From Alphaproteobacteria bacterium (lineage in GTDB: Bacteria > Pseudomonadota > Alphaproteobacteria > SP197), in assembly GCA_965242595.1 (NCBI GenBank), contig OZ251464.1, positions 1,982,235 through 2,046,234 of the forward strand: DNA of 64,000 bases. The letters run 5' to 3'. A program made the translations under genes and the position numbers. Shown in pieces: positions 15,131 through 56,146 of the stretch (positions within the stretch are counted from its first letter, which is position 1; every line of letters begins with the position of its first letter). The notes beneath the pieces were generated by a model that was not told the origin of the DNA, searched no databases, and was given only the letters and a program-made list of their open reading frames with translations.

Positions 15131-15150
15131 TTCCTGGCACAGTTGGCACC

Positions 15151-15245
15151 CTATCGCAACCGGGCCACCACCACAATAGGCGCTATCGGGAGGGTGCCGC
15201 AAGGGTGTCGTGAACATGTTGCGCGGCCGCCGCCCGACACCCGCC
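15151..15245. repeat. Intergenic element R, copy 3, partial and diverged. It lies between the giant gene 1 stop and hicB'.
   Basis: Starts ctatcgcaaccgg like copies 1 and 2. It retains three 11-bp-phased GTG(C/T)C repeats at 15194, 15205 and 15216. Confidence 0.55.
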
Positions 15246-15286: not shown

Positions 15287-18200
15287 CTACCAGGCCAGGC
15301 GCAGTTCCAGGGCCAGGCCGTGTTCGGGATCGGCGACGCCCTCGTTGCGGCTGGCCTCGATGGCGAGGCTCAGCACGCTGCCCAGCCCCCACCGCTGGCC
15401 CAGGCTGTAGCGGCGCTCGCCCCGGCCCAGGGCCATGGCGCCATAGGGGGTCGCGGTGGCGACGCCGCCCCAGGCGGGCAGGCCATAGCCCAGCTCGCTC
15501 TCCAGCCGGGCGCCCCGGCCGACGCTGGCGCCGTTCTCGTCGCCGCCCGCCATGCCGTCCTGCCACAGGCGCGTCAGGCCGCTATCGGCCACGCCCCAGG
15601 CGGGGGCGAGCTGGAACGACAGGCCGCGCCCGTCGCCGTCGGGGTTCAGGTGGAAGGCGCCAGACGCGCCCCATTCCTCCAGATCGCTGCGATGGGCCAG
15701 CAGGGCCCGCCCGCCCAGTTCGGCCCCCAGGCCGCCGCCGGAATCGCTCAGCGCGATGCTGCCGCCCAGCTCCACGCCCATGCCGCTGGCGCCATCGCCA
15801 CCGTCCCAGCGCAGCCCCGCCTCCAGGGACGGCGCCAGCGACCAGCCGCCATCCAGCGACCAGCTGCGGCTTCCCGCCGCCGCCAGCCGGGCGCGCTGGG
15901 TGGCCACGGTCAGGGCGGCGATCACCTCGCCATTGTCGTCCAGGGCATAGCGGGTGGCCTCCACCGACGCCTTCAGGTCCAGCGCCAGCCCGTCGGCGGC
16001 CAGCAGCGGCAGCGCCCCGCCCATGGCGGCGGCCAGCATGGAACTGTCGCCCGCCTGCCAGCCATAGCGCTCGCGGATGGCGCTATCGGTCATGCGCAGA
16101 TCGCCGCGCCCATAGCCCAGGGCCGCCCACAACCGGCTGCCGTCGGCGCCGGCCCAGCCCAGATAGGGATGGACGGCCGACATGGCGCTCTCGTGGTCGC
16201 CCCGGATGGCGCCCTCGTCGCCATCGCTGCGGTCGCTATAGGCGATGGCGCTCTCGAAGCGCGAGAGCGCCAGCCCGGCGGTGAAGCCGTCGCCCAGCAC
16301 CGCATCGGCGCCGAGATGGGCCGCGAACAGCCTGCCCGACCAGTCCAGCGCCGCCTGCTTGCGTTCCAGATCGCGCCAGTCGCCGGCGCCCCACAGCACC
16401 AGCGAGGAGGCGCCGCCATCGTCGTCATCGCCGCCACTCAGGGCCAGGGTGAAGCCTTCGCCGCCCAGCAGCTCCTTCCACGAGCTGCCGCCGTCCTCCA
16501 GCGCCTCGCCCTTGGAGCGCAGGAAGCCCGCCGCCGCGTCCAGGCCCTGCGCCGCCAGCCCACCGCCGCCACCGGCCGGGCCTTCCAGGCGGGAGGAGAT
16601 GGCGTCCAGCGCGCTGCCCCACATGGCCCGCGACAGCTCCGGCAGAATGGAGCGGTTGATGGCCTTCAGCCGCGCCCGCGCCAGGTCCAGATTGGCCACC
16701 ACCTCGACGGTGAAGACCAGCTCCGCCCGCTGGCCGTCGATATCGGTCGCCGTCCAGCTGTAGCTGCGCAGCTCGAACGCCGCGCCCGGCGTCCCCGACA
16801 GGCGGCGCCCGGCGCGGGCGATGCCGTCCGGCAGCGTCTCCGGCGCCAACGCATATTGCAGCTGCCCGTCGCCGCCGCTCGCCAGCGGCAGGTCCAGCGG
16901 CGCGATGGCCTCGTCCACCGTCCAGGTCAGCGCCTGCGGGAAGTCGGCCTCGGCGAAGGACGGGCGCGTGTCCTCATAGCCGACCGCAAAGGGCGAGAAT
17001 GTCGTCACCCCGGGCGCGCACACCCGCATCCGCTCCGCCTCCCAGGACGACCCCGCCACCGGTTCCCAGGCGCTGCCGTCATGATGCAGCAGCACGGGTT
17101 CGCGCCCCGCCGCCGCCGCCAGCAGAGCCTCGCTTACCGGCAGGCAGATATGCAGCCCCGCCGCCAGCGCCCCCGCGACCTGGATATCCACCGCCGACTG
17201 CGCCGCGCCGTCCCGCCCCAGGGCGAAGCCCGACCCATCCACCACCGGCAGCGCCCGGTCCGAAAGCGGCCTGAAGCTCATCTCCACCATGCGTCCGCCG
17301 ATGCTGAACACCGCCTCCGCCTCCCGCAACGGCGCCAGGATGCGGCTGTCCTCTTCCACCGGAGCGGAGAGCGCCGCCTGCACCCCGTCATAATCGCCGC
17401 CGGAGGCGCTGTGGGTCAGCAGCGCCGCGTCGGCATAGTCGTCCTCGTCCCCCCGCGCCGTCACCGTCACCGTCTGCGCCTGGTTCCAGTCCGCCGCCGT
17501 GAAGGTCAGGCCGGTGGGCGCGGGCGTCACATCCGGGTTGTCGCTCGCCACCGCCAGCGTCACCGGCCCGGTGGGCTCGCTGGTCAGCGCCACCGTGTAG
17601 TCGGCCCCCGGCCCGTCCGCCGTGGTCGCCACCGCCGCCGGCGCGAAGGCCAGCCCCCTGCTGTCGTCGTCGGCGACGGTCAGGGTGGCGGCGGCGACGG
17701 CCACGCTTTCGCCGGCGGCGCTGGCCAGGGCGTTGGCGGCCGCGCCCGTCACCCGCACCGATATGTCCGGCGCATCCACGGCGTTGTCGTTGGCCGTCAC
17801 CGTCACCTGGCCGCTGCTGGCGGTAGCAAAGGCGGCAAAGGTCAGCGTCGTTCCCGCCTGGGTGAAATCGCCCGCCACCGCGCCCGCCACCGGCGCCGCC
17901 TGAACCGTCACCGTGGTCGCCGCCGCCGAGGGATGGGACAGCAGCGCCGTCACCCGCGTCACGCCGCCGTTCTCGGAGATGGTGGCCGGGTTCAGCACCA
18001 GCGTCACCGCCGGCGCCGCGTCGTCGTCGCTCGTGGTCACATCCACATGCTCGACCAGGCCGTCATAGATGGCATCGCCGCTCGCCGTCCGCAGCCGCAC
18101 CTGCCATGCGACATCGCCATCGTCGATGGCGTCGTCCACCCCGGTCACCGTCACCCTCTGGGCCCGGTTCCAGTTCCCGGCGCCGAACACCAGCGCGGCC

Positions 18201-21200
18201 GGCGCCACCCGCCCCTCGCCGGGATCGCGGCTGGTCACCGCCACCGTCACCGCCGCGCCCGGCTGGGTCAGCAGCGCCAGGGTAAAGCTGGCCTGGCCGC
18301 CCGCCTCGCTCGCCCGCCCGGTCACCCGGCCCACATCCAGCCCGGCCTCGTCGTCGCGGATGGTCAGCGCCGCGTCGGCCGGGGCCGCCACCCCGCGCCC
18401 GCCCGTGACGGTCGCCGAGACCGTCACCGTCATGCGGCCCGAAACCGCGCTGTCGTCCACCGCCGTCACCGTCACCGCCCCGGTGCTGGCGGTCGCGCCC
18501 GCCGCCACCGTCAGCCTGTTCGCGGCCGAAAGCGTGAAATCGTCCGCCTGGGCGTTCGCCCCCGGCGCCGCCGCCACCGTCAGCGTGGTCGCCGCGCTGG
18601 ACGGGTGGGAGAGCGCCGCCGTCACCGTCGCCACGCCGCCGTTCTCCCAGATCCACGTCGGCGTCAGCACCAGCCGCGCCGTCGGCGTGGCCTCGTCGTC
18701 GGCGATGGTCAGCGTCACGGCGCCGGGATCGGTCTTGCCGTGGCCGTTGGCGGCGCTGCCGGAGACCGTCACCCGTTTGTCCGGCGCGTCGCTGGCGTTG
18801 TCCGCCGCCGCAATCGTCACCCGCCCCGCGCTGACGGTCGCGCCCGCCGCCACGGTCAGCGTCGCCGCCGCGCTCAGGCTGTAATCGCCCGCCACCGCGC
18901 CGCTGGCCGCCACCGGGGCCACCGCCACCGTCACCGTGGTGGCCTGGCTGGAAGGCCGGTCCAGCGCCGCCGTCACCGTCGCTACGCCGCCGTTCTCGGA
19001 AATCGAGGCCGACGACAGGCGCAGCGTCGTCGCCGGCGCCGGATCGTCGTCGGTCAGCGTCAGTATGGCGCCGCCGATGCTGCCCACGCCCTGGTCGTTG
19101 GCCGCCGTCGCCGTCACCATGGGGGTGCGGTCGGGTTCGTCGGTGGCGTTATCGACCGCCGTGACGCTCGCCGTGTCGCCGGTGTTCTCGGTGCTGCCGG
19201 CGGCGATGACGACGGTCGCATCCGCGCCCACCGCATAGGCCCCGGCCAGCGCCTGAACCGTCACCGTGGTGGCCGCGCTGGAGGGATGGGAGAGCGTCGC
19301 CGAGACCGCCGAGGCGCCGCCGTTCTCGGAGATGGTGGCCGGGTTCAGCGCCAGCGTCACCCCCGGCGCCGCCTCGTCGTCGGCGATGGTCAGCGTCACC
19401 GAGGGCGGGTGGTTGACAAGGCCCAGGCTGTCGCTGGCGGTGCCGGAGACCGTCACGCTCTTGTCGGGCGCGTCGGTGCCGTTGTTCGCGGCCGTGATCG
19501 TCACCGCGCCGCTGCTGGTGGTGGCGTTGGCCGCGAAGGTCAGGGTGGTTCCCGTCTGCGTGAAGTCCGTCCCCGAACCGGGCGATGCCGAGATCGTCAC
19601 CGTCACCGCCACGCTGGACACCTTGTCCAGCACCGCCGTCACCGTCGCCACCCCCCCGTTCTCCCCAATCGACGATGACGACAGCGCCAGCGTCGTCTGC
19701 GGCGTATCGTCGTCGGTCAGCGTCAGCGTGGCGTCGGACGGGTTCGCCACCCCGTTGCCGCCGGTGGCCGTGGCCGAGACCGTCACCCGCTTGCTGCCCG
19801 TGGCCACGGCGTTGTCGTTGGCCCGGATCGTCACCCGCCCGGCGCTGGCGGTGGCCCCGGCGGCGATGGTCAGCGTGGTCCCCGTCTGCGCGAAGTCCGC
19901 CGCCGCCGCCCCGCTCCCCGGCGCCGACGCCACCGTCAGCGTCACCGCCTGGGTGGAGGTGCCATCCAGTGTCGCCGTCACCGTCGCCACGCCGCCGGCC
20001 TCCGCAATCGAGGCGGGAGAAAGCGCCAGCGTCGCCACCGGCAGCGCCTCGTCCTCTTCCAGCGTCAGCGTCACCGGCGTCACGCTGCCCGCGCCCTGGT
20101 CGTTGTCCACCGTCGCCGTCACGCTGGCGGTGCGGTTGCCGGAATGGACGCCGTTGTTCACCGCCGTAATCGTCACCGTGTCGCTGGCGGCCGTGGTGTC
20201 CCCGGCGGCGATCACGATCTGCCCCGCCGCCCCCGCCGGCACCGTGAAGGCGCCGGAGACCGCCTGAACCGTCACCGTGGTGGCCGCGCTGGAGGGGTGC
20301 GAGAGCGTCGCCGAGACCGCCGAGCTGGCGCCGTTCTCCCCAATCGCGGCATCCGACAACGCCAGCGTCACCCCCGGCGCCGCATCGTCGTCGCTCAGCG
20401 TCAGCGTCTGCGACGACGGATCGTTGGTAAGCCCCAGGCTGTCGCTGGCCGTGCCGGAAACCGTCACGCTCTTGTCGGGCGCGTCGGTGTCGTTGTTCAC
20501 GCCCGTGACGGTCACCACGCCGGCGCTGGTGGTGGCGTTGGCCGCAAAGGTCAGGGTTCTGGCGGTGGAGAGGGCGAAATCGCCCGCCACCGCGCCCGCG
20601 CCCGGCGAAGCCGAGATCGTCACCGTCACCGCCACGGCCGAGATGCGGTCCAGTGTCGCCGTCACCGTCGCCACCCCGCCGTTCTCCCCAATCGACGACG
20701 ACGACAACGCCAGCGTCGTCTGCGGCGTATCGTCGTCGGTCAGCGTCAGCGTCTGCGACGACGGGTTCGCCACCCCGTTGCCGCCGGCAGCCGTCGCCGA
20801 AACCGTCACCTGCTTGCTGCCCGTGGCCACCGCGTTGTCGTTGGCCCGGATCGTCACCCGCCCGCTGCTGGCCGTGGCCTCGGCGGCGATGGTCAGCATG
20901 GTTCCCGCCTGCGCGAAGTCCGCCGCCGCCGCCCCACTCCCCGGCGCCGAGGCCACCGTCAGCGTCACCGCCTGGCTCGACTTGCCATTCAGGGTCGCCG
21001 TCACCGTCGCCACCCCCCCGGCCTCCGCAATCGACGCGGGAGAAAGCCCCAGCGTCGCCACCGGCAGCGTCTCGTCGTCTTCCAGCGTCAGCATCGCGCC
21101 GGTCACGCTGCCCGCGCCCCGGTCGTTGGTCAGCATCCCCGTCACCGTCGCCGTCCGGTTGGGTTCGTCGATGTCGTTATCCACCGCCGTGATCGCCGCC

Positions 21201-24200
21201 GTGTCGCTGGCGGCGGCGGTGGCCCCGGCCGCAATCACGATGGTGGCGTCCGAACCCACCGTGTAGAAGCCGGCCACGTGGGTCACCTTCACCGTGGTCG
21301 CCACCGCCGAGGCCCGCGACAGGGTGGCGCTCACCGCCGACGTGCCGCCGTTCTCCGAAATCGAGGCGGGAGAAAGCGCCAGCACCGCCCCCGGCGCCGC
21401 GTCGTCGTCGTTCAGCCTCAGCGTCGCCGTGGTGACGGCCATGGTGGTGGAATCGGCGCTGGCCCGGTCGTTCGTCACGATGGCCGTCACCGTCTCCTGG
21501 CGACCGGGGCTGCCCTGGTGAACATTGTCGTTCACCGCCGTAATCGTCACCGTCCCGCTGGCGTTCACCGTGTTTCCAGCCGCGATCACGATCTGCCCCG
21601 CCGCCCCCGACGGCACCGTGAACGCCCCCGAAACCCCCGTCACCGTCACCGTGGTGTCCGCGCTGGAGGGATGGGAAAGCGTCGCCGAGACCACCGAGGT
21701 GCCGCCATCCTCGGCAATCGAGGCTGCCGACAGCGCCAGCGTCACCCCCGGCGCCCCGTCGTTATCGGTGGTGGTCACCGCCACATCCACATCCGCCAGC
21801 GCGTTGTAGTTGGTATCGCCGCTGGCCGGGTCCAGGCGCACATTCCAGGTGACGGTGCCGTCGTCGATATCGTCGTCCTCCCCGGTCACCGTCACGACCT
21901 GGGTCGTGCTCCAGTCGCCCGGCTGGAACGTCAGGGTGTCGGGCGATACCGCCCCCTCGCTGGCATCCTGGCTGCTCACCGTCACCGTCACCGCCTGCGC
22001 GGGCTGGGCCAGCAGCGCCACGGTGAAGCTCGCCTGCCCGCCCCCCTCGCTCGCCTGGCCGCTCACCGTGCCCGTCACCAGGCCGTATTCGTTGTCTTGG
22101 TTGACGGCATAGACGGTCGCCGCCGCCAACCCGTCATAAACGCTGTCGGCCGTGTTCGCCTGGTCCACCGTCACCGTCACCTGGTAGTCCTGGTTGCCGT
22201 CGGCGGCGGAATCGTCCTGGCCGGTCAGGGTCACGGTCTGGGCCGTCTGCCAGTCGCTGGCCGTGAAGGTCAGCGACCCGGGCGAGACCGCGCCTTCGCT
22301 CGCGTCGGTGCTGGTCAGGGTCAGGTCCAGCTCCACGGCCCCGGTGGGTTCGCTGGTCAGCGCCACGGTGAAACTCGCCGTCCCGCCCGCCTCCGTGGTC
22401 CGCAGCCGCGATGCGGCCGAGGTGGTGGGCGAGAAGGCGAAGCCGGCCACATCGTCGTCCCGGTTCACGGCATAGACGTTGATCTGGGCCAGGCTGCTAT
22501 AGCGGCTGTCGGCGGTGTCGGCCGGATCTACTGTCGCCGTCACCCGGTAGTCGCGGTCGCCATCGTCGATAGCGTCGTCCTGGCCGGTCAGGATCACGGT
22601 CTGGGCCGTCTGCCAGTTCTGGGCCGTGAAGGTCTGGCTGCTCTGGGCGCCGTCGGTGGCCGGATCGGCGTCCACCGCGCCTTCGCCGGGCGTGACCGAG
22701 GCAAAATCGACCGACACATTCGAGGTCGGCTCGCTCGCCAGCTTCACCGTGAAGCTGGCGGTTCCACCGGCCTCCGTGGTCGCCAGCCGCGCCGTGGTCG
22801 AAGGCGTCGGCGCCAGCGTCAGCGCCGCCATATCGTCGTCGGTGACGGTCAGCGCCGCCCCGGTCACGACCATGACCTCCGACTCGGCGTCGGCCTGGGC
22901 GTTGGCGGCCGTTGCCGTCACCGTCGCCATGGCGTTGGCCGCGTCCACCTGGTTGTCCACCGCCACCACCCTCGCCCGGTCGCCGGCGGCCGCGGTGGCC
23001 CCGGCCGCGATCACGATGGTGGCGTCCGAACCCACCCGATAGGCCGCGCCCTGCGCCGCCGTCACCGTGATGGTGGTCGCCGCGCTGGACGGGTGCGAGA
23101 GCGTGGCGCTGACGCTGGCTATCCCGCCATTCTCCGCAATCGAGGACGGGGCCAGGGCCAGCGTCACCCCCGGCGCCCCATCGTCGTCGGCGATGGTCAG
23201 CGCCGCCCCGGTCACGCTGCCCGCCCCCTGGCTGTTGTCCATGGTGCCCGAAACCGTCACCGCCTTCGCCGGCGCGTCGCTGTCGTTGTCGCTGGCCGTC
23301 AGCGTCACCACGCCGGCGCTGGCCGTCCCGCCCGCCGCGATGGTCAGCGTCGCCGGGCTCGAAAGCGTGAAGTCGCTCCCCGCCCCCGGCGCGGCCGCCA
23401 CCGTCACCGTGGTCGCCGCGCTGGAGGGCCGGTCCAGGGTGGCCGTCACCGTCGCCACCCCGCCGTTCTCCCCAATCTCGCTTGCCGACAGCGCCAGCGT
23501 CGCCGTCGGCGCGGCGTCGTCGTCCACAATCGTCACCGTCACGTCGGCGGGCGCCGCCACCCCGTTGCCGCCCGCCACCGCGCCCGAGACCGTCACCGCC
23601 AAATCCGCCTCGTCGGTCGTGTCGGCGCGGGCGGTCAGCGTCACCACGCCGGTGCTGGCCGTCGCCTCGGCCGCGATGGTCAGCGTCGCCGAGCTCGAAA
23701 GCGTGAACTCCGTCCCCGCCCCGGGGGCGGCCGTCACCGTCACCGTCAGCGCGGCGCCGGGTTTGCCGTCGAGCCCAGCCGTCACCGTGGTCACATTCCC
23801 CGCCCCGCCCTCGGCGATGCTCGTGGCCGAAAGCGCCAGCGTCAGGGTGGGCGTCGCCTCGTCGTCGCTGGTGGTCACCGCTATGTTGCGATCCGCCAGG
23901 GCGTTGTAGTCGCCATCGCCGCTGGCCGTGTCCAGCAGCACATTCCACTCCACATCGCCGTCGTCGATATCGTCGTCCTCCCCGGTCACCGTCACCGCCT
24001 GGGCCGTGTTCCAGTCGCTCGTCTGGAAGATCAGGGTGGAGGGCGATACCCGGCCCTCGCTGGCATCCTGGCTGGAGACCGCCACCGTCACCGCCTGCGC
24101 AGGCTGGGACAGCAGCGCCACGGTGAAGCTGGCCTGTCCGCCCGCCTCGCTCGCCTGGCCGCTCACCGCGCTCACATCCAGCCCGAAATCGTCGTCGGCG

Positions 24201-27200
24201 TTGACGGCATAGACGGTCACGGCCGCAACCATGTCATAGACACTGTCGGCCGTGCTGGTCTGATTCACCGTCAGCGTCACTTCGTAGTCCTCGCTGCCAT
24301 CGACCATGCCGGCATCGTCCTGGCCGGTCAGCGTCACCGTCTGCGCCGTCTGCCAGTCCGACGCGGTGAAGGTCAGCGACGACGGCGACACCGTGCCCTG
24401 GGCCGTGTCCGAACTGGCCACATCCAGCACCACATCCCCGGTCGGCTCGGTCGCCAGGGTGACGGCCACCGTGGCCATGCTGCCATCCTCCGAGGTGCGC
24501 AGCCGCGAGCTTGTGCCGGTCGTGGGCGACATCACGATTCCCGCTATGTCATCGTCGGTGAACTCCATCGACTGGCTCAGCTGCGTCTGCGACAGGCCCT
24601 GGTCGTTCACCAGCTGGGCCCTCATCGACTCGGTCCGGGTCGCCTCGTCCACCTGGTTGTCCACCGCCGTAATCGTCACCGTGTCGGCGGCATTCGCCGT
24701 CTGCCCGGCGGCGATCACGATCTGCCCCGCCGCCCCGGCCGGCACCGTGAAGGCGCCGGCCACCGCCTGCACCGTCAGCGTAGTCGCCGCGCTGGAGGGG
24801 TGGGAGAGCGTCAATGTCACCGTCGCCGTGCCGCCATTCTCGGAGATCGTGGACGGCATCACCGTCATCACCGGCAACGGCGCCGCATCGTCGTCCTCCA
24901 GCGTCAGCGTCACGCCGCCGATGCTGCCCACGCCCTGGCCGTTGGCCGCCATCGCCGTCACCGTCGCCATGCGGTCGGGCTGGTCGGTGTCGTTATCCAC
25001 CGCCGTAATCGTCACCGTGTCGCTGGCCGCCGTGGTGGCGCCGGCCGCAATCACGATGTAGCCCGCCGCCCCGGCCGGCACCGTGAAGGCGCCGGAGACC
25101 GCCGTCACCGTCACCGTGGTGGCCGCGCTGGAGGGATGGGAGAGCGTCGCCGAAACCACCGAGCTGGCGCCGTTCTCCACAATCGAGTCATCCGACAGCG
25201 CCAGCGTCACCCCCGGCGCCGCATCGTCGTCGCTGATCGTCAGCTCCGCATCGCCGGGCGCCACCGCCCCCTGAGAGTTGTCCACACTCGCCGACACCGT
25301 CACCCGCTTGTCCGGCGCGTCGGTGTCGTTGCTGACCGCCGTGATCGTCACCAGCCCGGCGCTGGCGGTGGCATTGGCGGCGATGGTCAGCGTTTTGGCC
25401 GCAGACAGCGTGAAGTCCGCCGCCAGCGCCGGCGAGACCGGCACCGCCGCCACCGTCACCGTGGTCGCCACGATGGAGGCCCGGTCCAGGGCCGCCGTCA
25501 CCGTGGTCACGCCGCCGTTCTCGGCGATGGACGCCGCCGACAGCAGCAGCCGCGCCCTGGGGTCGTCGTCGTCGTTCACCGTCGCCGTCACATCCTCGCT
25601 CAGCCCGTTATAGGCGGCGACGCTGCTGGACGAGGTCAGCGTGACGGTCACCTGCGCGCCGTCGGCCTCGTCGGCGCTGTCGTCCACCGCCCTCACCTTC
25701 AGCTGGCGCGCATGGCTCCAGTTGTCCCCCGTGAACACCAGCGTCTTCGTGGCCGTGGCGGCCCCCGCGCCCACCGCCAGCCGCGCCTGGGTGGCATCGC
25801 CGCTGGTCGCCGTCACCGTCACCGCCGCCGCCGGCCTGCTCGCCAGCCGCACCGTAAAGGCCGCGCCGGCCCCGCCCTCGGTCACCGTCACCGCGTCGCT
25901 CGAAAGCGTCAGGGCGGCCATATCCGCATTGGTGGTGCGCACCGTCTGCGGGCGCACGCTGGCCCCGCCTATCGTGTGATAGGCGTCTGTGGGCGTGTCC
26001 GGCGTGTCCGGGAACAGGCGCAGGGTGTAGTCGCCGTCGCCGTCCACCACATTGTCGCTCACGCCGTGCAGGGTCACGGTCTGCGCCGTCTCCCAGTCGC
26101 TGGCGGTGAAGGTCAGCCGCGTCGATGCCGCCGCCGCGCCGCCGCCCGCAGACACCAGCCCCTGGGCCGTATCGCTGCTTTTCACCGCCACCGCGATGTC
26201 GGTGGTGGGCTGGCTGTTCAGCTTCACGGTGAAGGTCTCGCTGGCCCCTTCGGCCACGCTCAGCCACACCGGACACGGCGCCCGGCGGCAGCGCGGAAAG
26301 GCCGGGGCCGTCACCAGGGCGGCCCGGTCGTCCTCCCAGATCAGCAGCTCCGCCACCACGGTCGGGTTGCCCTGGGAATCGGTCGCCGCCGCCACCTGAC
26401 TCGCCGTCCCGGTCACGCTGGCCGAAAGCGTCACCTTCTTGCCGGCGACCGTGCTGTCCACGATGGAGTCGATGTCGTCGTCCACGGCCGTAATCGTCAC
26501 CACGCCGGTGCTGGCGGTGGCCCCGGCCGCGATGGTCAGCTTGGTGTTGGCGGAAAGGGTGAAATCGTCCGCCGCCCCATTGGTTCCCGGCGCCGCCCGG
26601 ACCGTCACCGTCACCGCCGCCCCCGATGCGGCGCTCAGGCTGGCGGTCACCGTGGCCATGCGCTCGCCCGAGGGCGCCGTCGCCAGCTCCTTGATGGTGT
26701 TCGCCTGGCCGGAGATCGGGTCCGACAGCGCCAGCGACAGGGTGGGCGCGGGGTCATCGTCGACGATGGTGAGCGTGGCGGTGGCCCGGTTCGGCGCCAG
26801 GGTCGCGCGCCCGCTCAGGTTGTGCAGGGTGACGACGAACGTCTCGTCGTGCTCGTCCTCCTCATCCCCTTCCCACGCGACCGAGAAGCATTGACGCTGG
26901 GTGGTGGGCGCACCATCGCCCAGGGTGTCGGTGAAGGGTCCGACACCCTGAGATACGATGGCCGTGTAGTCGGTCCCCGCCGTCGCCGTGCCGTCGCTGG
27001 TCGAGACCTGCGCATCGACGCGGCCATAGCCGGTCGGCTGGCTTATCACCGCGCAGGCACTGGCGGGCTGCTGGGAGGACGCATCGCCCTCGGTCTCGCG
27101 CAGCGCCGTGTCCTGGAAGCCCAGCGTCGGCGGGTCGTCGTCGTCAGTGATGGTGCCGGTTCCGGTCGCGGTCGCCAGACTCGCGTTCACGGCGCCGGAG

Positions 27201-30200
27201 AGCGTCAGCTTCACGGTCTCGTCCGGCTCGTTGATCTTGTCGGCGACCACCTCCGCGTTCAGGGGCTTGGCGGTCTCCCCGGCCGCGAAGGTCAGCGTTC
27301 CCGTGGTCGCCGCGGTCGCGCCCTGGGCGACGGTCAGCATCAGCGCCCCCGACGACAGGGCGGTATAGTCATAACCCGCCGCCGCCGTGCCGGCCCCGGA
27401 CCCGACCACATTGGCGAAGTTCACCTTCACCTCCCGTCCGCTGGCCGCCGACAGCGTGACCTGGAACGAAAGCGCCGTCCTGGTGCTCCCGCCCGCGCTC
27501 CCCTCCGTCACCGTGGGCGAGGAGATCGACAGGGCCGGCGTCGCATCGTCATCGACGATGGCGAGCGTCACGGCGGCCGGATGGGAGATTTCCCCCACGC
27601 TGCTGGCCACCCGGCCCGTCACCGTCACCGCCCCGTCCGCCTCGTCCACGGCATCGCCGACCGCCGCCACCGTCACCACGCCGCTGCTGGCGGTGGCCCC
27701 GGCCGCAATCGTCAGCGTGGTTCCCGTCTGCGTGAAGTCCGCCGCCTCGGTCGCATCCCCCGGCGTCGCCGTCACCGTCACCGTCACCGCCGCGCTGGCG
27801 CTCTTGTCCAGCCGCGCCGTCACCGTCGCCACCCCGCCGCTCTCGGAGAGCGACGCCGACGACAGCGCCAGCGTCACCACCGGCGTATCGTCGTCCGTGA
27901 CGGTCAGCGTCGCGTCGCCCGGGTTCGCCACCCCGTTGCCGCCGCTCGCCACGGCGGAGACCGTCACCTCCAGGGCCGGTGCCACCGCCCGGTTGTCCAC
28001 CGCCGTCACCGTCACCACGCCGGCGCTGGCGGTGGCCCCGGCGGCGATGGTCAGCACCCGGTTGGCGCCGAACGTCACCGCCCCGGCCGGGGCCGCCGCC
28101 AGGCGCAGCGTCACCGCCGCGCTCGATGCCCTGTCGAGGGTCGCCGTCACCGTCGCCACCCCGCCCGCCTCGGAAATCTCGCCCGGCGTCAGCGCCAGCG
28201 TCGCCACCGGCGTGGCATCGTCGTCGGCGAGCGTCAGGATAGCGGCGCGCGGGTTCGCCACCCCATGGCCGCCGGCGGCCGTGGCCGAGATCGTCACCGG
28301 CTTGTCGGGCGAATCCACGTCGTTGCCCACCGCCGTCACCGTCACCACGCCGCTGCTGACGGTGGCGCCGGCCGCGATGGTGAGCGTGGTTCCCGTCTGC
28401 GCGAAATCCGCCGCCACCGCCCCGGCGCCGGGCGCGGCCGCCACCGTCAGCGTCACCGCCGCGCTCGATGTCCCGCTCAGCGTCGCCGTCACCGTCGCCA
28501 CCCCGCCGCTCTCGGAGATCGACGCCGGCGCCAGCGCCAGCAGGGCCGTCGGCGTGGCATCGTCGTCGGCGATCTCCAGCGTCGCGGCCGCCGCCTGGCC
28601 GCCACCCGAAAGCGCGCCGGAGACCGTCACCCGCTTCGCCAGCGCGTCCACGTCGTTGTCCACCGCCGTCACCGTCACCACGCCGCTGCTGGCGGTGGCA
28701 CTGGCGGCGATGGTGAGCGTCGTGGCCCCGGACAACATGAAATCCGCCGCCGCCGCCCCCGATGCCGTCACCGCCATCGCCGCCACCGTCACCGTCACCG
28801 CCGCCGCGTCGGGGCGGTTGCGCACCGCCGTCACCGTCGCCACCCCGCCCGCCTCGGAGATCGACGACGACGACAACCGCAGCAGCACCTGCGCCGGGCC
28901 GTCGTCCTCATAGACGGTCAGCGTCGCATCGCCCGGCGCCGCCACCCCGTTGCCGCCGGTGACCGCGCCGGAGACCGTCACCGACTTGTTGCTGGCATCC
29001 ACGATGGCGTCTTCGTTGGCCGTCACCGTCACCGCCCCGCTGCTGGCGGTCTCGCCGGCCGCAATCGTCAGCGTCCTGGCCGCGGACAGGGTGAAATCGC
29101 CCAGCGCGGCCCCCGCCCCCGGCGCCGCCGAGACCGTCACCGTCACCGCCTCGCTGCTGGCGCCGGAAAGGGTGGCCGTCACCGTCGCCACCCCGCCATC
29201 CTCCGAAATCGCCGTCGGCGCCAGCGCCAGCGTCGCCGTCGGCAGCGCCTCGTCGTCGTTCACCGTCGCCGAAACGGTGGCATCCGCCAGCGCCTGGTAG
29301 GCGGCGTTGCCCGCGCTCGCCGTCGCCAGCGTGATGGCGACCACCCGGTCCGGCTCGTCCACGGCATCGTCCACCGCCCTCACCGTCACCGTCTGCGCCG
29401 TCGCCCAGTCGCCATCGCCGAAGCTCAGGGTCTGCGCGGCCGCAAAGCCGGACAAGCTCGCACCGGCGCCGCGGGCCAGCTCCACCTGGCCGGCATCCGC
29501 GCCCGCCGTCGTCACGCTCACCGTCACATCCGCCAGCGGCCGCTTCGCCAGCGCCACCGTAAAGGCCACCCCGGCCCCGCCCTCGCTCACCGTCACCGCG
29601 CTGCGCGACAGCGCCAGCCCGGCCGCATCCACATTGGTGGTGCGCGCCTTGGCCGTGGTCGCCGCCACCAGGCTGTAGGCGTCCGTGGCCGCGCTCGCCG
29701 GCTTCAGCGTCAGGTCGTAGTCCCAGTCGCCGTCCACCGCGTCGTCGCTCACGCCGGCCAGGGTCACGGTCTGCGCCGTCGCCCAGTCGCTGGCGGTGAA
29801 GGTCAGCTCCAGTGTCGCCGCCGCCGCCGCGCCGCCGGCAGACAGCCTGCCTTCGCTGGCATCGCCGCTCGTCGCCCGCAGCGTCACATCCGCCGTCGGC
29901 TGGCTGGCCAGCCTGGCCGTGAAGCTCGCCGTGGCGCCCTCCGCCACCGTCACCCATGGCTGGCTGGCATCCGCCGGCAGCGCCGGGTCCAGCACCAGCC
30001 CGGCGGCATCGTCTTCCACGATCCGCAGCGTCAGGGAGCCGGGATGGGCCACCGCATGGGCCGCATCCGCCGCCCTGCCGGACGTCCCCGAAACCCGGAC
30101 CTGCTTCGTCGTTCCGGTCAGGGTGGAATCGATGGCGTCGTTCACCGCCGTGATCGTCACCGTGCCGGTGCTGACGGTGGCGCCGGGCGCAATCGCCAGC

Positions 30201-33200
30201 ATCTTGTTCACGGAAAGGGCGAAATCGTCCGCCGCCGCCGACGCGCCCGCCGCCGCCGCCACCGTGATCGTCAGCGCGGCATGGGAGGGCCGGTCCAGGC
30301 TGGCCGTCACCACCGCCTGGCGCAGCCCGGCCGCCGCCGCTTCGTCTTCCTGGATCTCCGCCTGCGACAAGGTCAACGTCGCCACCGGCGCCGGGTCGTC
30401 GTCGGTCAGCGTCAGGGTCTGCGTCAGCCCGGCGCCGGCGGCGATGCCGTGCCCATTGGCCGCCATGCCCGAAATCGTCACGCCCTTCGCCGGTGAATCG
30501 GTCTCGTTGTCCACCGCCGTCACCGTCACCCGCCCGCTGCTGGCGCTCCCGCCGGCCGCAATCGTCAGCGTTCTGGCCGCCGACAGCGCGAAATCGCCAG
30601 CCGCCGCCCCCGCGCCCGCCGCCGCCGCCACCGTGATCGTGGTGGCCGCGCTGGAGGGCCGGTCCAGCGCCGCCGTCACCGTCGCCACCCCGCCATTCTC
30701 GGAGATCGACGCCGGCGACAGCGCCAGCGTCGCCGCCGGGGCCGCATCGTCGTCCAGCAGCGTCAGCGTCACCGCCACCGGCTGGGTGATGGTGCGCCCG
30801 CTCGCCGCGCTCCCCGAAACCCGCACGCTCTTCGCCGGCGCATCCACCCGGTTGTCGCTGGCGGTGATCGTCACCGCCCCCGTGCTGACGGTCGCGCCGG
30901 CCGCGATCTCCAGCACCGTTCCCGTCAGGGTGAAATCGCCAGCCACCGCCCCCGATGCCGTCACCGCCGTCGCCGCCACCGTCACCGTCACCGTCGCCCG
31001 CGACGTCCGGTCCAGCGTCGCCGTCACCGATGCCACCCCGCCATTCTCGGAAATCGCCCCCGGCGTCAGCGCCAGCGTCACCTGCGGCGCGCCGTCGTCG
31101 TCGGCGATGGCCAGCGTCACCGCCGCCGGGTCCGCCACCCCGTTGCCGCCGCTCGCCCGCCCGGCAATCCGCACCTGCTTGCCGGCCTCCGGCAGCGTGT
31201 CATCCACCGCCACCAGCGTCACCCGCCCGCGGCTCGCCGTCTCGCCAGCGGCGATGGTCAGCGTGGTCGCTGTCGAAAGCTCGTAATCGTCGCCGCTGGC
31301 ATTGGTTCCCGCCATCGCCGAGACCGCAATCGTCACCGCCAGGTTCGATTTGCCGGTCAGCGTCGCCGTCACCGTGGCGATGCCGCCATTCTCCGTAATC
31401 GGGTTGCGCGACAGCGCCAGCGCCGCCACCGGCAGCGTCTCGTCTTCCGTCAGCGTCACCTCCACCGCCGCCGGCGCCGCCAGGCGCCCATGGCCGCCCG
31501 TCACCGTCGCCCGCACCGCCACCCTGCGGTCCTCGCCCGGCTCATGCACATCGTTGTCGCTCGCCGTCACCGTCGCCACCCCGCTGCTGACGGTGGCCCC
31601 GGGCGCGAAGGTCAGCGTCGCCGCCGCCGACAGGGCGAAATCGCCCGCCACCGCATGGGTTCCCGGCACCGCCGCCGCCGCCAGCGTCAGCGTCGCCGCC
31701 GCGCTGGAGGCCCCGGTCAGCGTCGCCGTCACCGTCGCCACGCCGCCATTCTCCGTAATCGCCATCGCCGAGACCGCCAGCGCCAGCGTCGGCGTGGCAT
31801 CGTCGTCCACCACCGTCGCCGTCACCGTCTCGCTCAGGCCGTGATAGAGCCCGTCCCCGGTGCTGGCCGTCGTCAGCGCGATCTCCACCTGCTCGCTGGC
31901 GGCCTCGTCCAGGGCATCGTCCACCGCCCGCAGGCTCAGCGTCTGCGCCGTCTCCCAGTCCGCCGCCGTGAAGGTCAGCGTCTGCGACGCCGCAAAGCCC
32001 GCCCCGGCCGCCAGCAGCGCGTCCCCGTCGTCGCCGCTTGTGGCGGTGACGGTCACGTTCGCCTGCGGCCGACTCGCCAGCGCCACCGTAAAGCTGGCAT
32101 CCGCCCCGCCCTCGCTCACCGTCACCGCCTGGCTGGAGAGCGCCAGCCCCGCCACATCGTCGTCGGTGGTCTTCACATCCGCGCTCACCGTCGCCAGCCG
32201 GTCATAGGCATCCACCCCCGCGCCGGCCGCGTCCGCATTCAGGCGCACCTGCCAGTCGCCGGCCCCATCGACGGCAGCGTCGTCCACCCCGGTCACCGTC
32301 ACCGTCTGCGCCGTCTCCCAATCCGCCGCCGTGAAGGTCAGCGCCGTCGGCAAAACCCTGCCCTGGGCCGCGTCCGAACTCGCCACCGTCACCGTCACCG
32401 CCACCGTCGGACGCGAGGTCAGCGCCACCGTGAAGCTGGCATCGTCTCCCTCCTCCACCACCAGCCAGGGCCGGCCCACCGGGATCGCCGGCGCCAGCGC
32501 CAGGCCGATGGCATCGTCCTCCAGGATGGTCAGCTCCACGGTCGCCGGGGCGGCCAGCCCGCCCGACGCCAGCCCCGAAACCGTCACCCTCTTGCCGTCC
32601 AGCGCGCCATCGACCCGCGAGTCGATGGCGTCGTCCTGCGCCGTCACCGTCACCACCCCCGCGCTCGCCGTGGCCCCGGCGGCGATGGTCAGGGTGGTGG
32701 CCTGCGAAAGCGCGAAGTCGTCGGCCGCCGCATTGGTCCCCGGCGCCGCCGAGATCGTCACCGTGGTCGCCGTCCTCGCCACCCCGCTCAGACTCGCCGT
32801 CACGACCGCCCGCCGCGCGCCGGCGGCCGCGTCGCCGTCTTCCTCGATGCTGGCGCGCGAAAGCGCCAGCGTCACCGTCGGCGCCGCATCGTCGTCGGCG
32901 ACGGTCAGCGTCACCGCCGTGGGCGCCGCCACCCCGTTGCCGCCAGCCACCATGGCCGCCACCGTCACGCTTTTGTCCGGCCCATAGTCGCTGTCGTCCT
33001 GCGCCGTCACCGTCACCACCCCCGCGCTCGCCGTCTGCCCGGCCGCAATCGTCAGCGTCGCCGCCGTCGAAAGCGCGAAGTCCCCGGCCACCGCTTCCGT
33101 TCCCGGCGTCGCCGTCACCGTCGCCGTCACCGCTTCGCTCGACGGCCCCGACAGCGTCGCCGTCACCGTGCTGACATTGCCCGCCCCGCTCTCGCTGATC

Positions 33201-36200
33201 GTGTCCGGCTGCGCCGCATCCGGCTCCGACAGCGCCAGCGTCACCACGGGCAGGGTTTCGTCGTCCACGATGGTGCCGGTTCCCAGCAGCGTCCCCAGCG
33301 CCGCATTGCCGGCCGGCCCCAGGCTCAGCGCCACCGTCTCGTCGCCTTCGTGAACGTCGTCGCCCGTCACCGTCACCGCCACGCTCTTGCCGGTCTCGCC
33401 GGCCGCGAAGGTCAGCGTGCCGCCGCTGAACGCCGTGTAATCGCTTCCCGCCGTGGCGCTGCCGGGCGGGTTCCACGCCCCCCAGCCCACCGTCACCCGC
33501 TTGCCGCTGACCGCATCCAGCGTCACCGCGAAGGTCAGCGCCGCGCTGTCGCCGACATCGCCTTCGGCCACGCTGGGCGACGAGATCGACACCGCCGGCG
33601 GGTTGTCGTCGTCCACCAGCGTCAGCATCGCCGGGGCCGAATTCGCCACCGCAACCGTGCCGCCGGTGGACGCGATGCCCCAGATCCTCACCTTCTGATC
33701 CGCCTCGTCGATGGCATCGCCCACCGCCGCCACCGTCACCACGCCCACGCTGGCGCCCGCCGCCGGCGCAAAAACCAGCGTCCTTCCCGAGCTCAGCGCG
33801 AAATCGCCCGCCTGCGTGTCCGCGCCCGGGGCCGCCGATACCGTCACCGTCACCGCCTGATGCTCCAGCACCGGGCTCAGCACCGCCGTCACCGTCGCCA
33901 CCCCGCCGGTCTCCGAGATCGAGCTGGACGACAGCGACAGCGCCACCACCGAGCCACCGTCGTCGTCCACCAGCGTCAGCGTCTCGGCGGCCGGGTTCGC
34001 CAGCGCCCCATTGCCCCCGGCCACCGTTCCCGTCACCGTCGCCTGCCGGTTCACCGTGTCCGCCATATTGTCCACCGCCGTCACGGTCACACCCCCCGCG
34101 CTGACCGTGGCCCCGGCCGCGACGGTCAGCGTGGTCGCCGCCGACAGCGTGAAGTCGTTCGCCACCGTGTCGGTTCCCGCCGCCGGCGCCGCCGCCACCG
34201 TCACCGTCACCGCTTCGCTGGAGGGATGGGACAGCGCCGCCGTCACCGACGCCACTCCCCCGTTCTCCAGAATCGACGATGGCGTCAGCAACAGCGTCAC
34301 CGTCGGGATCGCCTCGTCCTCCCGGATATTCAGCGTTGCCGACCCCGTGTCGGTCACCGTCTGCCCATCCACCGGCGTCGCCGCCACGGTGGCCGAAATC
34401 GTCACCTGCTTGTCCGTCGATCCCCACGCCGGGCCGTGAACGTCGTCATCCACGGCCGTCACCGTCACCACCCCGGCGCTGGCCGTGGCCCCGGCCGCGA
34501 TGGTGAGGGTGGTTGCGCTGGAAAGGGTGAAATCGCCCGCCGCCGCATGGGTTCCAGGGGCGGCGGCCACCGTCACCGTCACCGCCACGCTCGACGGCCG
34601 GTTCAGCACCGCCGTCACCGTCGCCACCCCGCCCGCCTCCGAAATCGATCCCGGAGTCAGGACCAGCGAGGCCTGCGGCGTCGCATCGTCGTCGGCGATG
34701 GCGAGCTCCACCCCCGCCGGGTCCGCCACCAGGCCATAGCTGTCGCTTGCCACGCCGGTCACCGTCACCGTCTTCGCTGGCGAATCGCTCTCGTCGTCCA
34801 CCGCCGTCACCGTCACCACGCCGCCGCTGGCCGTGGCCCCGGCCGCGATGGTCAGCGTCTTCGCCGCCGACAGCGTGAAATCCCCCACCGCCGCGTTCGC
34901 CCCCGCCATGGCCGCCACCGTCACCGTGATCGCCTGGCCCGAGACGCCGCCGGCCAGCCCGGCCGTCACCGTCGCCACATTGTTGGCCCCGCTCTCGTCG
35001 ATGGACGCGCGCGAAAGGGCCAGCGTCAGCGTCGGCGTGGCATCGTCGTCCGTGATGGTCAGCGCCGTCCCGGTCACATCCACCGCCCCCTGGGCGTTGG
35101 CCCCGGTGCCGGTCAGCGTCACCGTCCCGTCCGGGGAATCCCAGGCGTTGGCGACCGCCGTCACGCTCACCGTTCCCGCGCTGGCGACCTCCCCCACCGC
35201 GATGGTCAGCGTCTTCGCGCCCGACAGCGTGAACGCGCCATCCTCGGTATGCGCCCCCGCCGCCGCCGCCACCGTGACGGTCACCGCCGTCACCGCCGCC
35301 CCGTTCAGCGTCGCCGTCACCGTCGCGATACCCCCCGCCTCCGCAATCGGGTTGGCCGACAGCATCAGCGCCGCCACCGGGCGGTCGTCGTCCACGATGG
35401 TCAGCGTCGCCGCGCGCGGATGCGCCACCCCGTTGCCGCCCACCGCCGTGGCCACCACCGCCACCGCCGCATCCGCCGCGTCATGGCTGTTGTCGTTGGC
35501 CGTCACCGTCACCCGCCCCGTGCTGGCGGTCGCCCCGGCCGCAATCGTCAGCACCGCCCCCGCCTGGCGGAAGGCGCCCGCCCGCGCCGGCGCCACCGGC
35601 GTGGTCGCCACCGTCACCGTCACCGCCGCGCTCGACGGACCCGAAAGCGCCGCCGTGATCGTCGCCACCCCGCCCGCCTCCGCAATCGACGCCGGCGACA
35701 GCGCCAGCGTCACCGACGGCAGCGCCTCGTCGTCGGCCAGCGTCAGCGCCACCGCCGCCGGCGCCGCCACGCCATGGCCCCCGGTCGCCATGGCCGAAAT
35801 CCGCGCCCGCTTGTCCGGCGCATCCACATCGTTGCCGTTCGCCGTCACCGTCACCTGCCCGCTGCTGGCGGTATCCCCGGCCGCAATCGTCAGCGTCCTG
35901 GCCGCGCTGAGGTCGAAATCGGCCGCCACCGCCCCGCTGGCGGTCAGCGCGGCCGCCGCCACCGTCACCGTCACCGCCGCGCTGGAAGCATGCGACAGCG
36001 CCGCCGTCACCGTCGCCACCCCGCCGCTCTCGGAGATCGCCGCCGACGACAGCGCCAGCGTCAGCGTCGGCAGCGCGTCGTCGTCGGCGATGGTGCCCGC
36101 CGCCATCGCCGTTCCCAGGCGCGCGTTCACCGGCGCGTCGAGGGCCAGGCGCACCGTCTCGTCCAGCTCGTCGGTGTCGTCGCCGCTCACCGTCACGTCC

Positions 36201-56080: not shown

Positions 56081-56099
56081 ATCCAGGCCTGAACCGCCA

Positions 56100-56146
56100 C
56101 TGATCGAACCGTAATCTATAACAACCCATCGCGCCAACGCCTGCAA
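56100..56146 (-). promoter_or_regulatory. Candidate promoter of giant gene 1 in a low-GC stretch
   Basis: Minus strand reads TTGCAG-17nt-TGTTATAGAT upstream of the ATG at 56080. The track's TTG start coincides with the -35-like TTGCAG. Confidence 0.25.

What the first reader, a model, noticed from the sequence alone, without database searches (positions are those of the whole stretch)
15290..16690. Autotransporter-like C-terminal barrel and ~50-aa signal peptide on a 13-kaa beads-on-a-string passenger: a secretion-mode paradox
Giant Calx-beta/BIg adhesins (SiiE, LapA, MpIBP-like) are normally type I secretion substrates with C-terminal RTX repeats. Here I see no GGxGxD nonapeptides. Instead the last ~465 aa are G/D/S-rich amphipathic strands ending in the OMP beta-signal LALELRLAW, and the N-terminus is a long Sec signal. 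That points to type Va secretion of a passenger far larger than, and architecturally unlike, classical beta-helical passengers. If true this is an unusual passenger/translocator combination.
Basis: inference. Interest (0 to 1): 0.75.

Follow-up and report, generated by a model that had tools for sequence, protein, structure and literature searches.

The report
Giant Ig-repeat autotransporter-type surface protein
One unbroken 13,600-residue gene encodes a secretion signal, about 100 immunoglobulin-like "beads" and a C-terminal outer-membrane barrel related to autotransporters, so it is an unusually large member of a big, almost unstudied family of surface adhesins seen mainly in uncultured (apparently sponge-associated) bacteria.

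Summary
Window 15287-56146 (-) is one ORF of 13,619 codons with no frameshift, GC3 0.92 and no RTX repeats. It has a Sec-type signal peptide of about 48 aa and ends ...LALELRLAW.

The last 468 aa (15290-16693) form a linker helix plus beta-barrel module.
- Direct Pfam, NCBIfam and PDB sequence searches of the whole module find nothing.
- Its first 207 barrel residues match PF03797 (Autotransporter) below threshold (E 1.6e-4).
- 14 of 36 close homologues match PF03797 on their own at E<=0.01 (best 45 bits; nine of the ten re-scanned pass the 26-bit threshold).

The passenger is about 100 Calx-beta/LapA-like domains plus He_PIG and fn3 domains.

The module always sits at the C-terminus. It defines a family of over 6,000 50%-identity clusters with Ig-like passengers of up to 7,149 aa, in MAGs of several phyla. 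A 5,007-aa collinear homologue exists.

The paradox is therefore real but recurrent. FN3/cadherin plus autotransporter proteins were noted in a sponge cyanobiont in 2019.

Unresolved and potentially novel: the barrel module is about 370 aa with 18 predicted strands, against the canonical 12.

The parts
15287..56146 (-). Whole giant ORF: 13,619 codons from the first TTG, stop codon at 15287-15289.
   Evidence: Searches show a single stop. One search gives GC3 0.92.
55937..56080 (-). Probable Sec signal peptide, 48 aa from ATG 56080. The n-region carries K4, K7, R16 and R17. The h-region is LCAAALAGGAGALALVVALVM. Cleavage is inferred at AAA|HVG.
   Evidence: One search lists the start codons. 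One search gives the hydrophobicity profile. One search shows the homologue P0248 with AVA|HVG at the same place. The assignment rests on inspection only, because no SignalP run was possible.
54593..55936 (-). Non-repeat N-terminal 'head', about 450 aa, with two He_PIG Ig-like domains. It would be the distal tip of the fibre.
   Evidence: One search matches He_PIG at E 1.6e-15. One search finds 68% identity to the N-terminus of P0248.
17393..54592 (-). Passenger stalk: 100 copies of a Calx-beta/LapA-like Ig-fold unit of about 115 aa (aa 519-12918). It is interrupted at aa 1704-1842 and at aa 4276-4822, the latter holding He_PIG x3 and fn3.
   Evidence: Searches give the Pfam matches. One search counts 100 domains with a self-built HMM, median spacing 115 aa. 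One search covers the interruptions. One search shows the repeats are 40-81% identical to one another.
16970..17392 (-). Unique pre-barrel segment, aa 12919-13059, containing 2 Cys. No family could be assigned.
   Evidence: Searches find no internal repeat here. One search finds no Pfam hit.
16697..16969 (-). Last Ig-like beta-sandwich, next to the linker. It is He_PIG-like in homologues and is the candidate first-folding unit.
   Evidence: AF2 residues 1-91 form seven strands at pLDDT 84-96; the equivalent region in P0002 and P0004 matches He_PIG.
16457..16693 (-). Linker. It has one conserved 36-residue alpha helix (consensus ARLKAINESVLPELSRAMWGSALDAVTGRL) followed by a lower-confidence helical segment.
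   Evidence: Searches show H2-37 at pLDDT 94-97, and H51-66 and H72-76 at pLDDT 46-70. Searches give the conservation.
15290..16456 (-). Beta-barrel module: a short strand plus 18 long amphipathic strands. Strands 1-9 are collinear with PF03797.
15290..15325 (-). Terminal strand with the beta-signal-like motif, ending in W (HGLALELRLAW).
   Evidence: One search gives the sequence. One search shows 75 of 79 related loci end in W and one in F.

Best explanation
The gene encodes a Sec-exported, outer-membrane-anchored fibrillar adhesin built on the autotransporter (type V, Va-like) plan. It has a cleavable signal peptide of about 48 aa and a passenger of about 13,000 aa made only of Ig-fold domains: about 100 Calx-beta/LapA-like units plus He_PIG and fn3. 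[quoted passage not shown]

Shown here:
- the uninterrupted fusion of these parts;
- homology and fold similarity of the C-terminal module to Va translocators;
- absence of RTX repeats, and of T1SS genes in the window;
- recurrence of the same architecture in thousands of proteins.

Inferred:
- BAM recognises the terminal aromatic beta-signal and inserts the barrel.
- The linker helix ends up in the pore.
- The passenger is threaded out C-to-N. The barrel-proximal Ig domain folds first, and stepwise folding of successive Ig domains, possibly helped by Ca2+ binding to the Calx-beta units, acts as a ratchet. This is the mechanism proposed for the Ig-like passengers of inverse (Ve) autotransporters.
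- The product would be a fibre of roughly 0.4 micrometres on the cell surface, whose He_PIG head binds host or matrix.
For: - The ORF is continuous and coding.
- A signal peptide is present. Sec signals are also plain in many large family members and in the adjacent paralogue.
- The C-terminal 500 aa have 35 homologues at E 1e-14 to 1e-177. Fourteen of the 36 aligned sequences match PF03797 on their own at E<=0.01 (best 45.2 bits, E 1.3e-11). Nine of the ten homologues re-scanned individually reach the 26-bit gathering score.
- The window protein's own first 207 barrel residues hit PF03797 at E 1.6e-4.
- AF2 model 1 has pLDDT 83.5 and pTM 0.75. Model 2 has pLDDT 84.1 and pTM 0.79.
- 75 of 79 related loci end in W.
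- There are no RTX motifs and no T1SS genes in the window.
- The family is large: 10,903 representatives at E<=1e-3 and 6,306 at E<=1e-30. The module is C-terminal in nearly all of the top 150, which range from 464 to 7,149 aa.
- Passengers of listed members carry only Ig-type Pfam domains.
- In 37 of 79 genome loci the barrel ORF is open for more than 3,790 aa.
- P0248 (5,007 aa) is collinear with the giant at both ends.
Against: - The complete C-terminal module gets no direct hit in Pfam, NCBIfam or PDB sequence searches, even at E<=10. The direct PF03797 match on the fragment is below the gathering score (21.9 against 26 bits).
- PF03797 aligns only to profile positions 1 to about 205-218 of 255. 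About 117 aa and six predicted strands have no counterpart in the 12-strand model.
- Whether the helix sits in the pore could not be seen, because no coordinates were available.
- The barrel is translated last. A passenger of about 1.3 MDa made of autonomously folding domains would therefore have to stay export-competent in the periplasm. This is a real mechanistic difficulty for a narrow 12-strand pore.
- Surface exposure is untested.
Confidence: 0.75

Rival explanations
1. It represents a distinct, enlarged translocator class derived from the Va barrel. All 18 amphipathic strands would form one wide barrel, plugged at rest by the linker helices. The lumen of roughly 2.5 nm would let Ig domains pass partly or fully folded, one bead at a time. 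This would resolve the problem that the barrel is made last. It overlaps the best explanation and differs in barrel size and in the folding state of the passenger.
For: - Two AF2 runs give the same 18 long strands joined by short turns of 2-9 residues, apart from one 28-aa loop, and the count is even.
- Nearly all strands contain a 9-residue window with a hydrophobic face and a polar face, including the last six.
- The beta-signal lies on strand 18.
- The module is about 370 aa. PF03797 has 255 positions, and the largest barrel in Celik et al. was 294 aa (PMC3419190).
- 22-strand TonB-dependent receptors align over 300-334 residues.
- Foldseek ranks large barrels such as LptD and TonB-dependent receptors alongside autotransporters.
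- Two helices precede the barrel.
Against: - Coevolution analysis (Meff 153) sees every hairpin but no strand 1 to strand 18 closure. It shows a strand 1 to strand 13 coupling instead. This analysis is underpowered.
- No coordinates could be inspected.
- Passage of folded domains is pure inference.
Confidence: 0.3
2. It is a type I secretion (RTX/LapA/SiiE-type) adhesin after all, and the C-terminal region is a misread T1SS signal domain.
For: The passenger domain types (Calx-beta PF03160, LapA PF20579) are those of known T1SS giant adhesins. That these domains typify T1SS adhesins is established knowledge of the family, not something tested here.
Against: - There are no GGxGxD repeats anywhere in the mature protein.
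- An N-terminal Sec signal is present instead of a retention module.
- The C-terminus is a confidently predicted beta-barrel ending in W.
- No ABC, MFP or TolC genes lie in the 64-kb window.
Confidence: 0.02
3. The barrel is only a membrane anchor, and the Ig-repeat chain is not exported through or beside it. The chain would either stay in the periplasm or need a separate, unidentified exporter.
For: - Surface exposure was not tested.
- The size and the barrel-last order of synthesis make classical self-transport hard to imagine.
- The barrel differs from canonical PF03797.
Against: - Roughly 100 Ig domains at about 4 nm each (a textbook domain length, not measured here) give a rod of about 0.4 micrometres, which cannot fit sensibly in a periplasm.
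- Homology and the helix-barrel arrangement match translocators.
- The He_PIG, fn3 and cadherin passengers of the family are typical extracellular adhesin modules (PMC6506613).
Confidence: 0.08
4. It is an assembly artefact or pseudogene. On this view repeat mis-assembly joined a barrel gene to an unrelated repeat array, or inflated the repeat number.
For: Long tandem arrays are prone to mis-assembly, and some repeat pairs are about 80% identical.
Against: - 40.8 kb are free of stops with uniform GC3 of 0.92.
- The repeats are mostly 40-65% identical, so they are assemblable.
- An independent 5,007-aa protein has the same head and the same barrel, in the same order.
- In 37 of 79 loci the barrel ORF runs more than 3,790 aa.
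- Representatives of up to 7,149 aa exist.
Confidence: 0.04

Closest known systems
Classical (type Va) autotransporters, Pfam PF03797, e.g. Hbp, NalP, AIDA-I, EspP, EstA
   Same: - The order of parts matches: Sec signal, then passenger, then alpha-helical linker, then C-terminal beta-barrel with a terminal aromatic residue.
- Homologues match PF03797 on their own, most of those re-scanned above the gathering score.
   Different: - The passenger is about 100 Ig-fold domains, not a beta-helix (types 1 and 2) or a single catalytic domain (type 3) as classified in PMC9289746.
- The barrel module is about 370 aa with 18 predicted strands, against 12 strands in about 255-294 aa.
- There are two helices before the barrel.
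- There is no ESPR-type extended signal region in Pfam.
- The direct Pfam score is below threshold.
BigE, the 10,429-aa Va autotransporter called 'the largest known autotransporter' by Celik et al. 2012 (PMC3419190)
   Same: It shows that passengers of more than 10,000 aa fused to a Va-type barrel occur. Its length also arises by internal repetition.
   Different: BigE's passenger is BrkA-like and beta-helical. The protein here is about 30% longer and is made entirely of Ig-like domains.
FN3/cadherin plus autotransporter 'eukaryotic-like proteins' of the sponge cyanobiont Ca. Synechococcus (Aphanocapsa) feldmannii 277cV (Burgsdorf et al. 2019, PMC6506613)
   Same: - Locus L071 from that MAG carries the same barrel family.
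- The architecture is Ig-like adhesin domains plus an autotransporter domain.
- The authors suggested transfer from Alpha- or Gammaproteobacterial symbionts, which fits the taxa found here.
   Different: Those proteins are far smaller and were noted only as domain architectures. The barrel extension, the family's size and giant members were not described there.
Giant T1SS Ig-repeat adhesins (LapA, SiiE, MpIBP)
   Same: The passenger uses Calx-beta/LapA-type Ig repeats arranged as a long fibre, and the likely role is adhesion.
   Different: There are no RTX repeats and no T1SS signal or genes. Instead there is a Sec signal peptide and a C-terminal membrane barrel.
Inverse autotransporters (type Ve: intimin, invasin)
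   Same: The passenger is made of tandem Ig-like domains exported by a type V barrel. Sequential domain folding is the proposed driving force.
   Different: In Ve the barrel is N-terminal and the passenger C-terminal, and the barrel family differs. Here the barrel is C-terminal and PF03797-related.

Membership tests
Type Va (classical) autotransporter | N-terminal Sec signal peptide | tested here: met
   An n-h-c layout with an AxA site follows ATG 56080. The mature N-terminus HVG is conserved in P0248. This was judged by inspection only, with no SignalP run.
Type Va (classical) autotransporter | C-terminal domain belongs to the PF03797 autotransporter beta-domain family | tested here: inconclusive
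   - Directly, the whole module gets no hit. The first 207 aa score 21.9 bits (E 1.6e-4), below the gathering score of 26.
- Indirectly, homologues 40-53% identical over the whole module reach PF03797 at up to 45.2 bits. Fourteen of 36 match at E<=0.01, and nine of the ten re-scanned pass the gathering score.
- Only profile positions 1 to about 205-218 of 255 are matched.
Type Va (classical) autotransporter | Alpha-helical linker immediately before the barrel, lying in its pore | tested here: inconclusive
Type Va (classical) autotransporter | 12-stranded beta-barrel | tested here: inconclusive
Type Va (classical) autotransporter | C-terminal beta-signal with a terminal aromatic residue | tested here: met
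   The protein ends ...LALELRLAW. W is the last residue in 75 of 79 relatives and F in one.
Type Va (classical) autotransporter | Passenger actually translocated to the cell surface via BAM and its own barrel | not testable with these tools
   This needs an experiment.
T1SS RTX-type giant adhesin (LapA/SiiE/MpIBP) | C-terminal GGxGxDxUx nonapeptide repeats | tested here: not met
   There are none in the mature protein. Loose patterns occur at or below the shuffled expectation.
T1SS RTX-type giant adhesin (LapA/SiiE/MpIBP) | No Sec signal, with an adjacent ABC transporter, MFP and TolC-like genes | tested here: not met
   A Sec-like signal is present. The ORFs scanned among the neighbours match an aspartyl-protease domain, RmuC, pentapeptide repeats and ankyrin repeats, or nothing. 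Only 64 kb were examined.
Inverse autotransporter (type Ve) | N-terminal barrel with a C-terminal Ig-like passenger | tested here: not met
   The barrel lies at the extreme C-terminus. The N-terminal 498 aa contain He_PIG domains only.
Two-partner secretion substrate (type Vb, TpsA) | N-terminal TPS domain and a separate 16-strand TpsB partner | tested here: not met

The most novel reading that the evidence does not exclude
The C-terminal module may not be a 12-strand Va translocator. It may be an expanded barrel of about 18 strands, derived from the autotransporter barrel by adding three hairpins and plugged by two helices. That would define a new type V subclass specialised for exporting strings of Ig-fold domains up to more than 13,000 residues long. 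The subclass appears to have spread by horizontal transfer among phylogenetically distant members of sponge or holobiont microbiomes.
Probability: 0.3. Interest if true: 0.8.

Novelty: new variant of a known kind. Interest (0 to 1): 0.6.

Why it matters
**Size and passenger type.** At about 13,600 aa, this would exceed the 10,429-aa BigE reported as the largest known autotransporter (PMC3419190). It would also add a fourth passenger type, tandem Ig-fold beads, to the three recognised for Va (PMC9289746).

**A test case for type V secretion.** The translocator is synthesised last. About 1.3 MDa of autonomously folding domains must therefore be kept export-competent, or the pore must be wider than the canonical one. 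The extra six predicted strands make the second option testable.

**Ecology.** The family comprises more than 6,000 50%-identity clusters. It has many copies per genome and occurs in Alpha- and Gammaproteobacteria, Binatia, Nitrospirales and a sponge cyanobiont. It sits next to ankyrin-repeat genes here. It therefore looks like a major, uncharacterised adhesin system of animal-associated uncultured bacteria.

Tried and rejected
- **Direct sequence searches.** Pfam, NCBIfam and PDB searches with the last 500, 560 and 800 aa, and a PDB search with the family profile, found no autotransporter hit. Only the trimmed 207-aa fragment gave a sub-threshold PF03797 match.
- **Foldseek against PDB.** Low TM-scores to LptD, EspP, BrkA and TonB-dependent receptors alike, so not discriminating.
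- **afdb50 library.** Unavailable.
- **First genome scan.** The scan with the broad alignment failed for lack of conserved stretches. It was redone with a narrower alignment.
- **Source contig.** Looking it up via the RmuC neighbour found nothing on record.
- **Neighbour conservation.** tblastn of the window's small flanking ORFs against 79 related loci gave no hits. The neighbours are therefore not part of a conserved system.
- **Mean-field DCA.** I used it to test barrel closure. Adjacent hairpins were detectable, but the strand 1 to strand 18 pair gave no signal and strand 1 to strand 13 gave an odd one. With Meff of 82 and then 153 I treat this as inconclusive.
- **Internal duplication.** hhalign of the last strands against strands 1-12 gave only a weak hint: strands 16-18 against strands 8-10, E 7e-4, probability 26%.
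- **Literature.** No paper describing this barrel subfamily or giant Ig-repeat Va autotransporters was found. The only mention is the domain-architecture note in PMC6506613.
- **Rejected readings.** T1SS adhesin, TPS substrate, inverse autotransporter and assembly chimera (see the rival explanations and membership test).
Full report
**1. What is there**

The minus strand of window 15287-56146 carries a single ORF of 13,619 codons. GC at the three codon positions is 0.67/0.60/0.92 for the whole gene and 0.76/0.58/0.91 for the last 1.4 kb. No frameshift or stop separates them. The overlapping plus-strand ORFs are high-GC shadow frames.

**2. The N-terminus**

The first in-frame ATG is at 56080. 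From there the sequence is MGCKIVKPAGGVGACRR / LCAAALAGGAGALALVVALVM / QLGAGVPEAAA | HVGNSH.
- It has a basic n-region, a hydrophobic core of about 21 residues (mean Kyte-Doolittle 2.0-2.2) and an AxA site.
- A 5,007-aa homologue (P0248) has a shorter signal ending AVA|HVG. The proposed mature end is therefore conserved.
- No SignalP was available, so this is a reasoned reading and not a score.
- Pfam finds no ESPR-type extension.

**3. The passenger**

Pfam finds Calx-beta, LapA, He_PIG and fn3 domains throughout.
- An HMM iterated on the protein itself counts 100 copies of a unit of about 115 aa between aa 519 and 12918.
- This array is interrupted at aa 1704-1842 and at aa 4276-4822. The second gap holds three He_PIG domains and one fn3.
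- The head of about 450 aa holds two He_PIG domains.
- Repeats are mostly 40-65% identical, and up to 81%.
- GGxGxD occurs once, upstream of the start. Looser RTX patterns are at chance level.

**4. The C-terminal module**

The last 701 aa are unique within the protein. Direct searches of the last 500-800 aa against Pfam, NCBIfam and PDB sequences found nothing, even at E<=10. The link to autotransporters rests on four other lines.
- *Homologues.* The region has 35 homologues at E 1e-14 to 1e-177, mostly proteins of 450-860 aa. Fourteen of the 36 aligned sequences match PF03797 on their own at E<=0.01 (best 45.2 bits). Nine of the ten homologues re-scanned individually reach the gathering score of 26.
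- *Direct match.* The first 207 barrel residues of the window protein, scanned alone, hit PF03797 at E 1.6e-4. The score is 21.9 bits, below threshold, over profile positions 5-200 of 255.
- *Predicted structure.* AlphaFold2 with 36 and then 137 aligned sequences gave pLDDT 83.5 and 84.1 and pTM 0.75 and 0.79. Both show an Ig sandwich, a 36-residue helix at pLDDT 94-97, a less certain second helix, a short strand and then 18 long strands.

The protein ends in W, as do 75 of 79 relatives.

**5. Surroundings**

The window contains no ABC transporter, membrane-fusion or TolC genes.
- Downstream on the same strand (window 1-11457) lies a second giant Calx-beta/LapA ORF of at least 3,810 aa. It has its own classical signal peptide (...AAAPAWA|QSV) and runs off the window.
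- Between the two giants are small ORFs, one with a retropepsin-like domain.
- Upstream are RmuC, a pentapeptide-repeat protein and an ankyrin-repeat protein of at least 962 aa.
- None of the small neighbours recurs in related loci.

**6. The family**

A profile of the helix-plus-barrel module finds 10,903 representatives (50%-identity clusters) at E<=1e-3 and 6,306 at E<=1e-30.
- Among the best 150 the module is C-terminal in nearly all, and lengths run from 464 to 7,149 aa.
- Listed members carry only Ig-type passenger domains: He_PIG, Calx-beta, fn3, cadherin and Big.
- In species-representative genomes, 165 copies were confirmed and 79 loci fetched. They come from MAGs of Alpha- and Gammaproteobacteria, Arenicellales, Paracoccaceae, Binatia and Nitrospirales, and from Aphanocapsa feldmannii 277cV. 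Some genomes hold eight or more copies.
- In 37 of the 79 loci the barrel ORF is still open 10 kb upstream, so it exceeds 3,790 aa.
- The closest copies (60% identity) lie about 21 kb apart on one chromosome, consistent with the tandem arrangement seen here.
- P0248 is collinear with the giant: 56% identity over the first 3,000 aa and 43% over the last 3,900. It lacks about 8,600 residues of repeats.

The fusion is therefore genuine and recurrent. This gene is its extreme in length among everything I saw.

**7. Mechanism**

The parts and their order are those of a classical autotransporter. I infer the following steps.
- Sec export.
- BAM-dependent insertion via the terminal beta-signal.
- C-to-N emergence of the passenger, starting with the barrel-proximal Ig domain.
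- Successive domain folding as the ratchet. This borrows from what is proposed for Ig-like passengers of inverse autotransporters. That comparison comes from my knowledge of the field, not from a test here.

The barrel is translated last, so an enormous chain of independently folding domains must wait in the periplasm.

**8. The unresolved point**

The barrel module is about 370 aa. PF03797 has 255 positions, and the largest barrel in Celik et al. was 294 aa (PMC3419190).
- PF03797 is collinear with strands 1-9 only. About six strands are extra.
- All 18 strands, the last six included, are amphipathic like transmembrane strands. They are joined by short turns. This favours one large barrel.
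- Coevolution (Meff 153) shows every hairpin but no strand 1 to strand 18 contact.
- I could not see coordinates and had no structure jobs left, so I leave this open at about 30% for a truly enlarged barrel.

**9. Comparison with what is known**

- Va passengers are classified as a beta-helix, a beta-helix plus catalytic head, or a catalytic domain alone (PMC9289746). Tandem Ig-fold passengers are not among them.
- The largest autotransporter on record in the literature I could search is BigE, at 10,429 aa and beta-helical (PMC3419190).
- FN3/cadherin plus autotransporter domain proteins were noted, without further analysis, in the sponge cyanobiont 277cV. That paper suggested transfer from proteobacterial symbionts (PMC6506613). 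One of my loci (L071) comes from that MAG.
- The sponge or holobiont origin of the window itself is an inference from the taxa of the relatives and the ankyrin neighbour. It is not shown.

**10. Verdict**

This is a giant, Sec-dependent, autotransporter-type Ig-repeat adhesin and not a T1SS substrate.

It is not unique. It is the largest seen member of a very large, essentially uncharacterised subfamily whose translocator departs from the canonical 12-strand domain.

I rate it a new variant of a known kind, with interest 0.6.

Noticed in passing
window 1-11457 (-): A second giant Calx-beta/LapA-repeat ORF of at least 3,810 aa lies directly downstream on the same strand. Its probable start is GTG 11430 and it has its own signal peptide (VRGCRASRVGFAVLLAALALAAAAPAWA|QSV). 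It is 37-58% identical to parts of the first giant and runs off the window, so its C-terminus (barrel or not) is unseen. The closest relatives (L002/L003 on OZ241369.1) carry two barrels about 21 kb apart, consistent with the same tandem layout.
   Followed up: partly
window 61112-64000 (+): An ORF of at least 962 aa is packed with ankyrin repeats (Ank_2 E 2.5e-131) and runs off the window end. Such repeats are a hallmark 'eukaryotic-like protein' of sponge symbionts, which fits the inferred habitat.
   Followed up: no
window 58000-60500; ORF 59009-60463 (-): A pentapeptide-repeat protein (PF00805, E 5e-23) sits in a patch where GC drops to 0.59, against 0.70-0.75 elsewhere. This may be foreign DNA.
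   Followed up: no
window 11809-15179: The spacer between the two giants holds small ORFs with no conserved partners in related loci. One (13385-14119, -) has a retropepsin-like aspartyl-protease domain (PF13650, E 1.3e-6). A 112-aa ORF (14763-15101, -) looks antitoxin-like by eye, which was not tested.
   Followed up: partly
window 57410-58879 (-): A RmuC-family gene (PF02646, E 6.6e-102) lies upstream of the giant. The exact protein is not on record in the contig index, so the source assembly could not be traced.
   Followed up: partly
P0248 (5,007 aa) against window 15290-56080: This homologue is collinear with the giant, with the same head (68% identity over about 440 aa) and the same barrel, but about 8,600 fewer repeat residues. 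Repeat number therefore varies more than 2.5-fold between relatives.
   Followed up: partly
loci L002-L080: The same barrel family occurs in Alpha- and Gammaproteobacteria, Binatia, Nitrospirales and a cyanobacterium, often at eight or more copies per genome. This pattern suggests horizontal spread within a shared habitat.
   Followed up: partly
window 15290-16456 (barrel), alignment columns 98-112 against 357-367: The coevolution analysis gave an unexpected coupling between predicted strands 1 and 13 (z about 3) and none between strands 1 and 18. This is unexplained and may be noise at Meff 153.
   Followed up: partly
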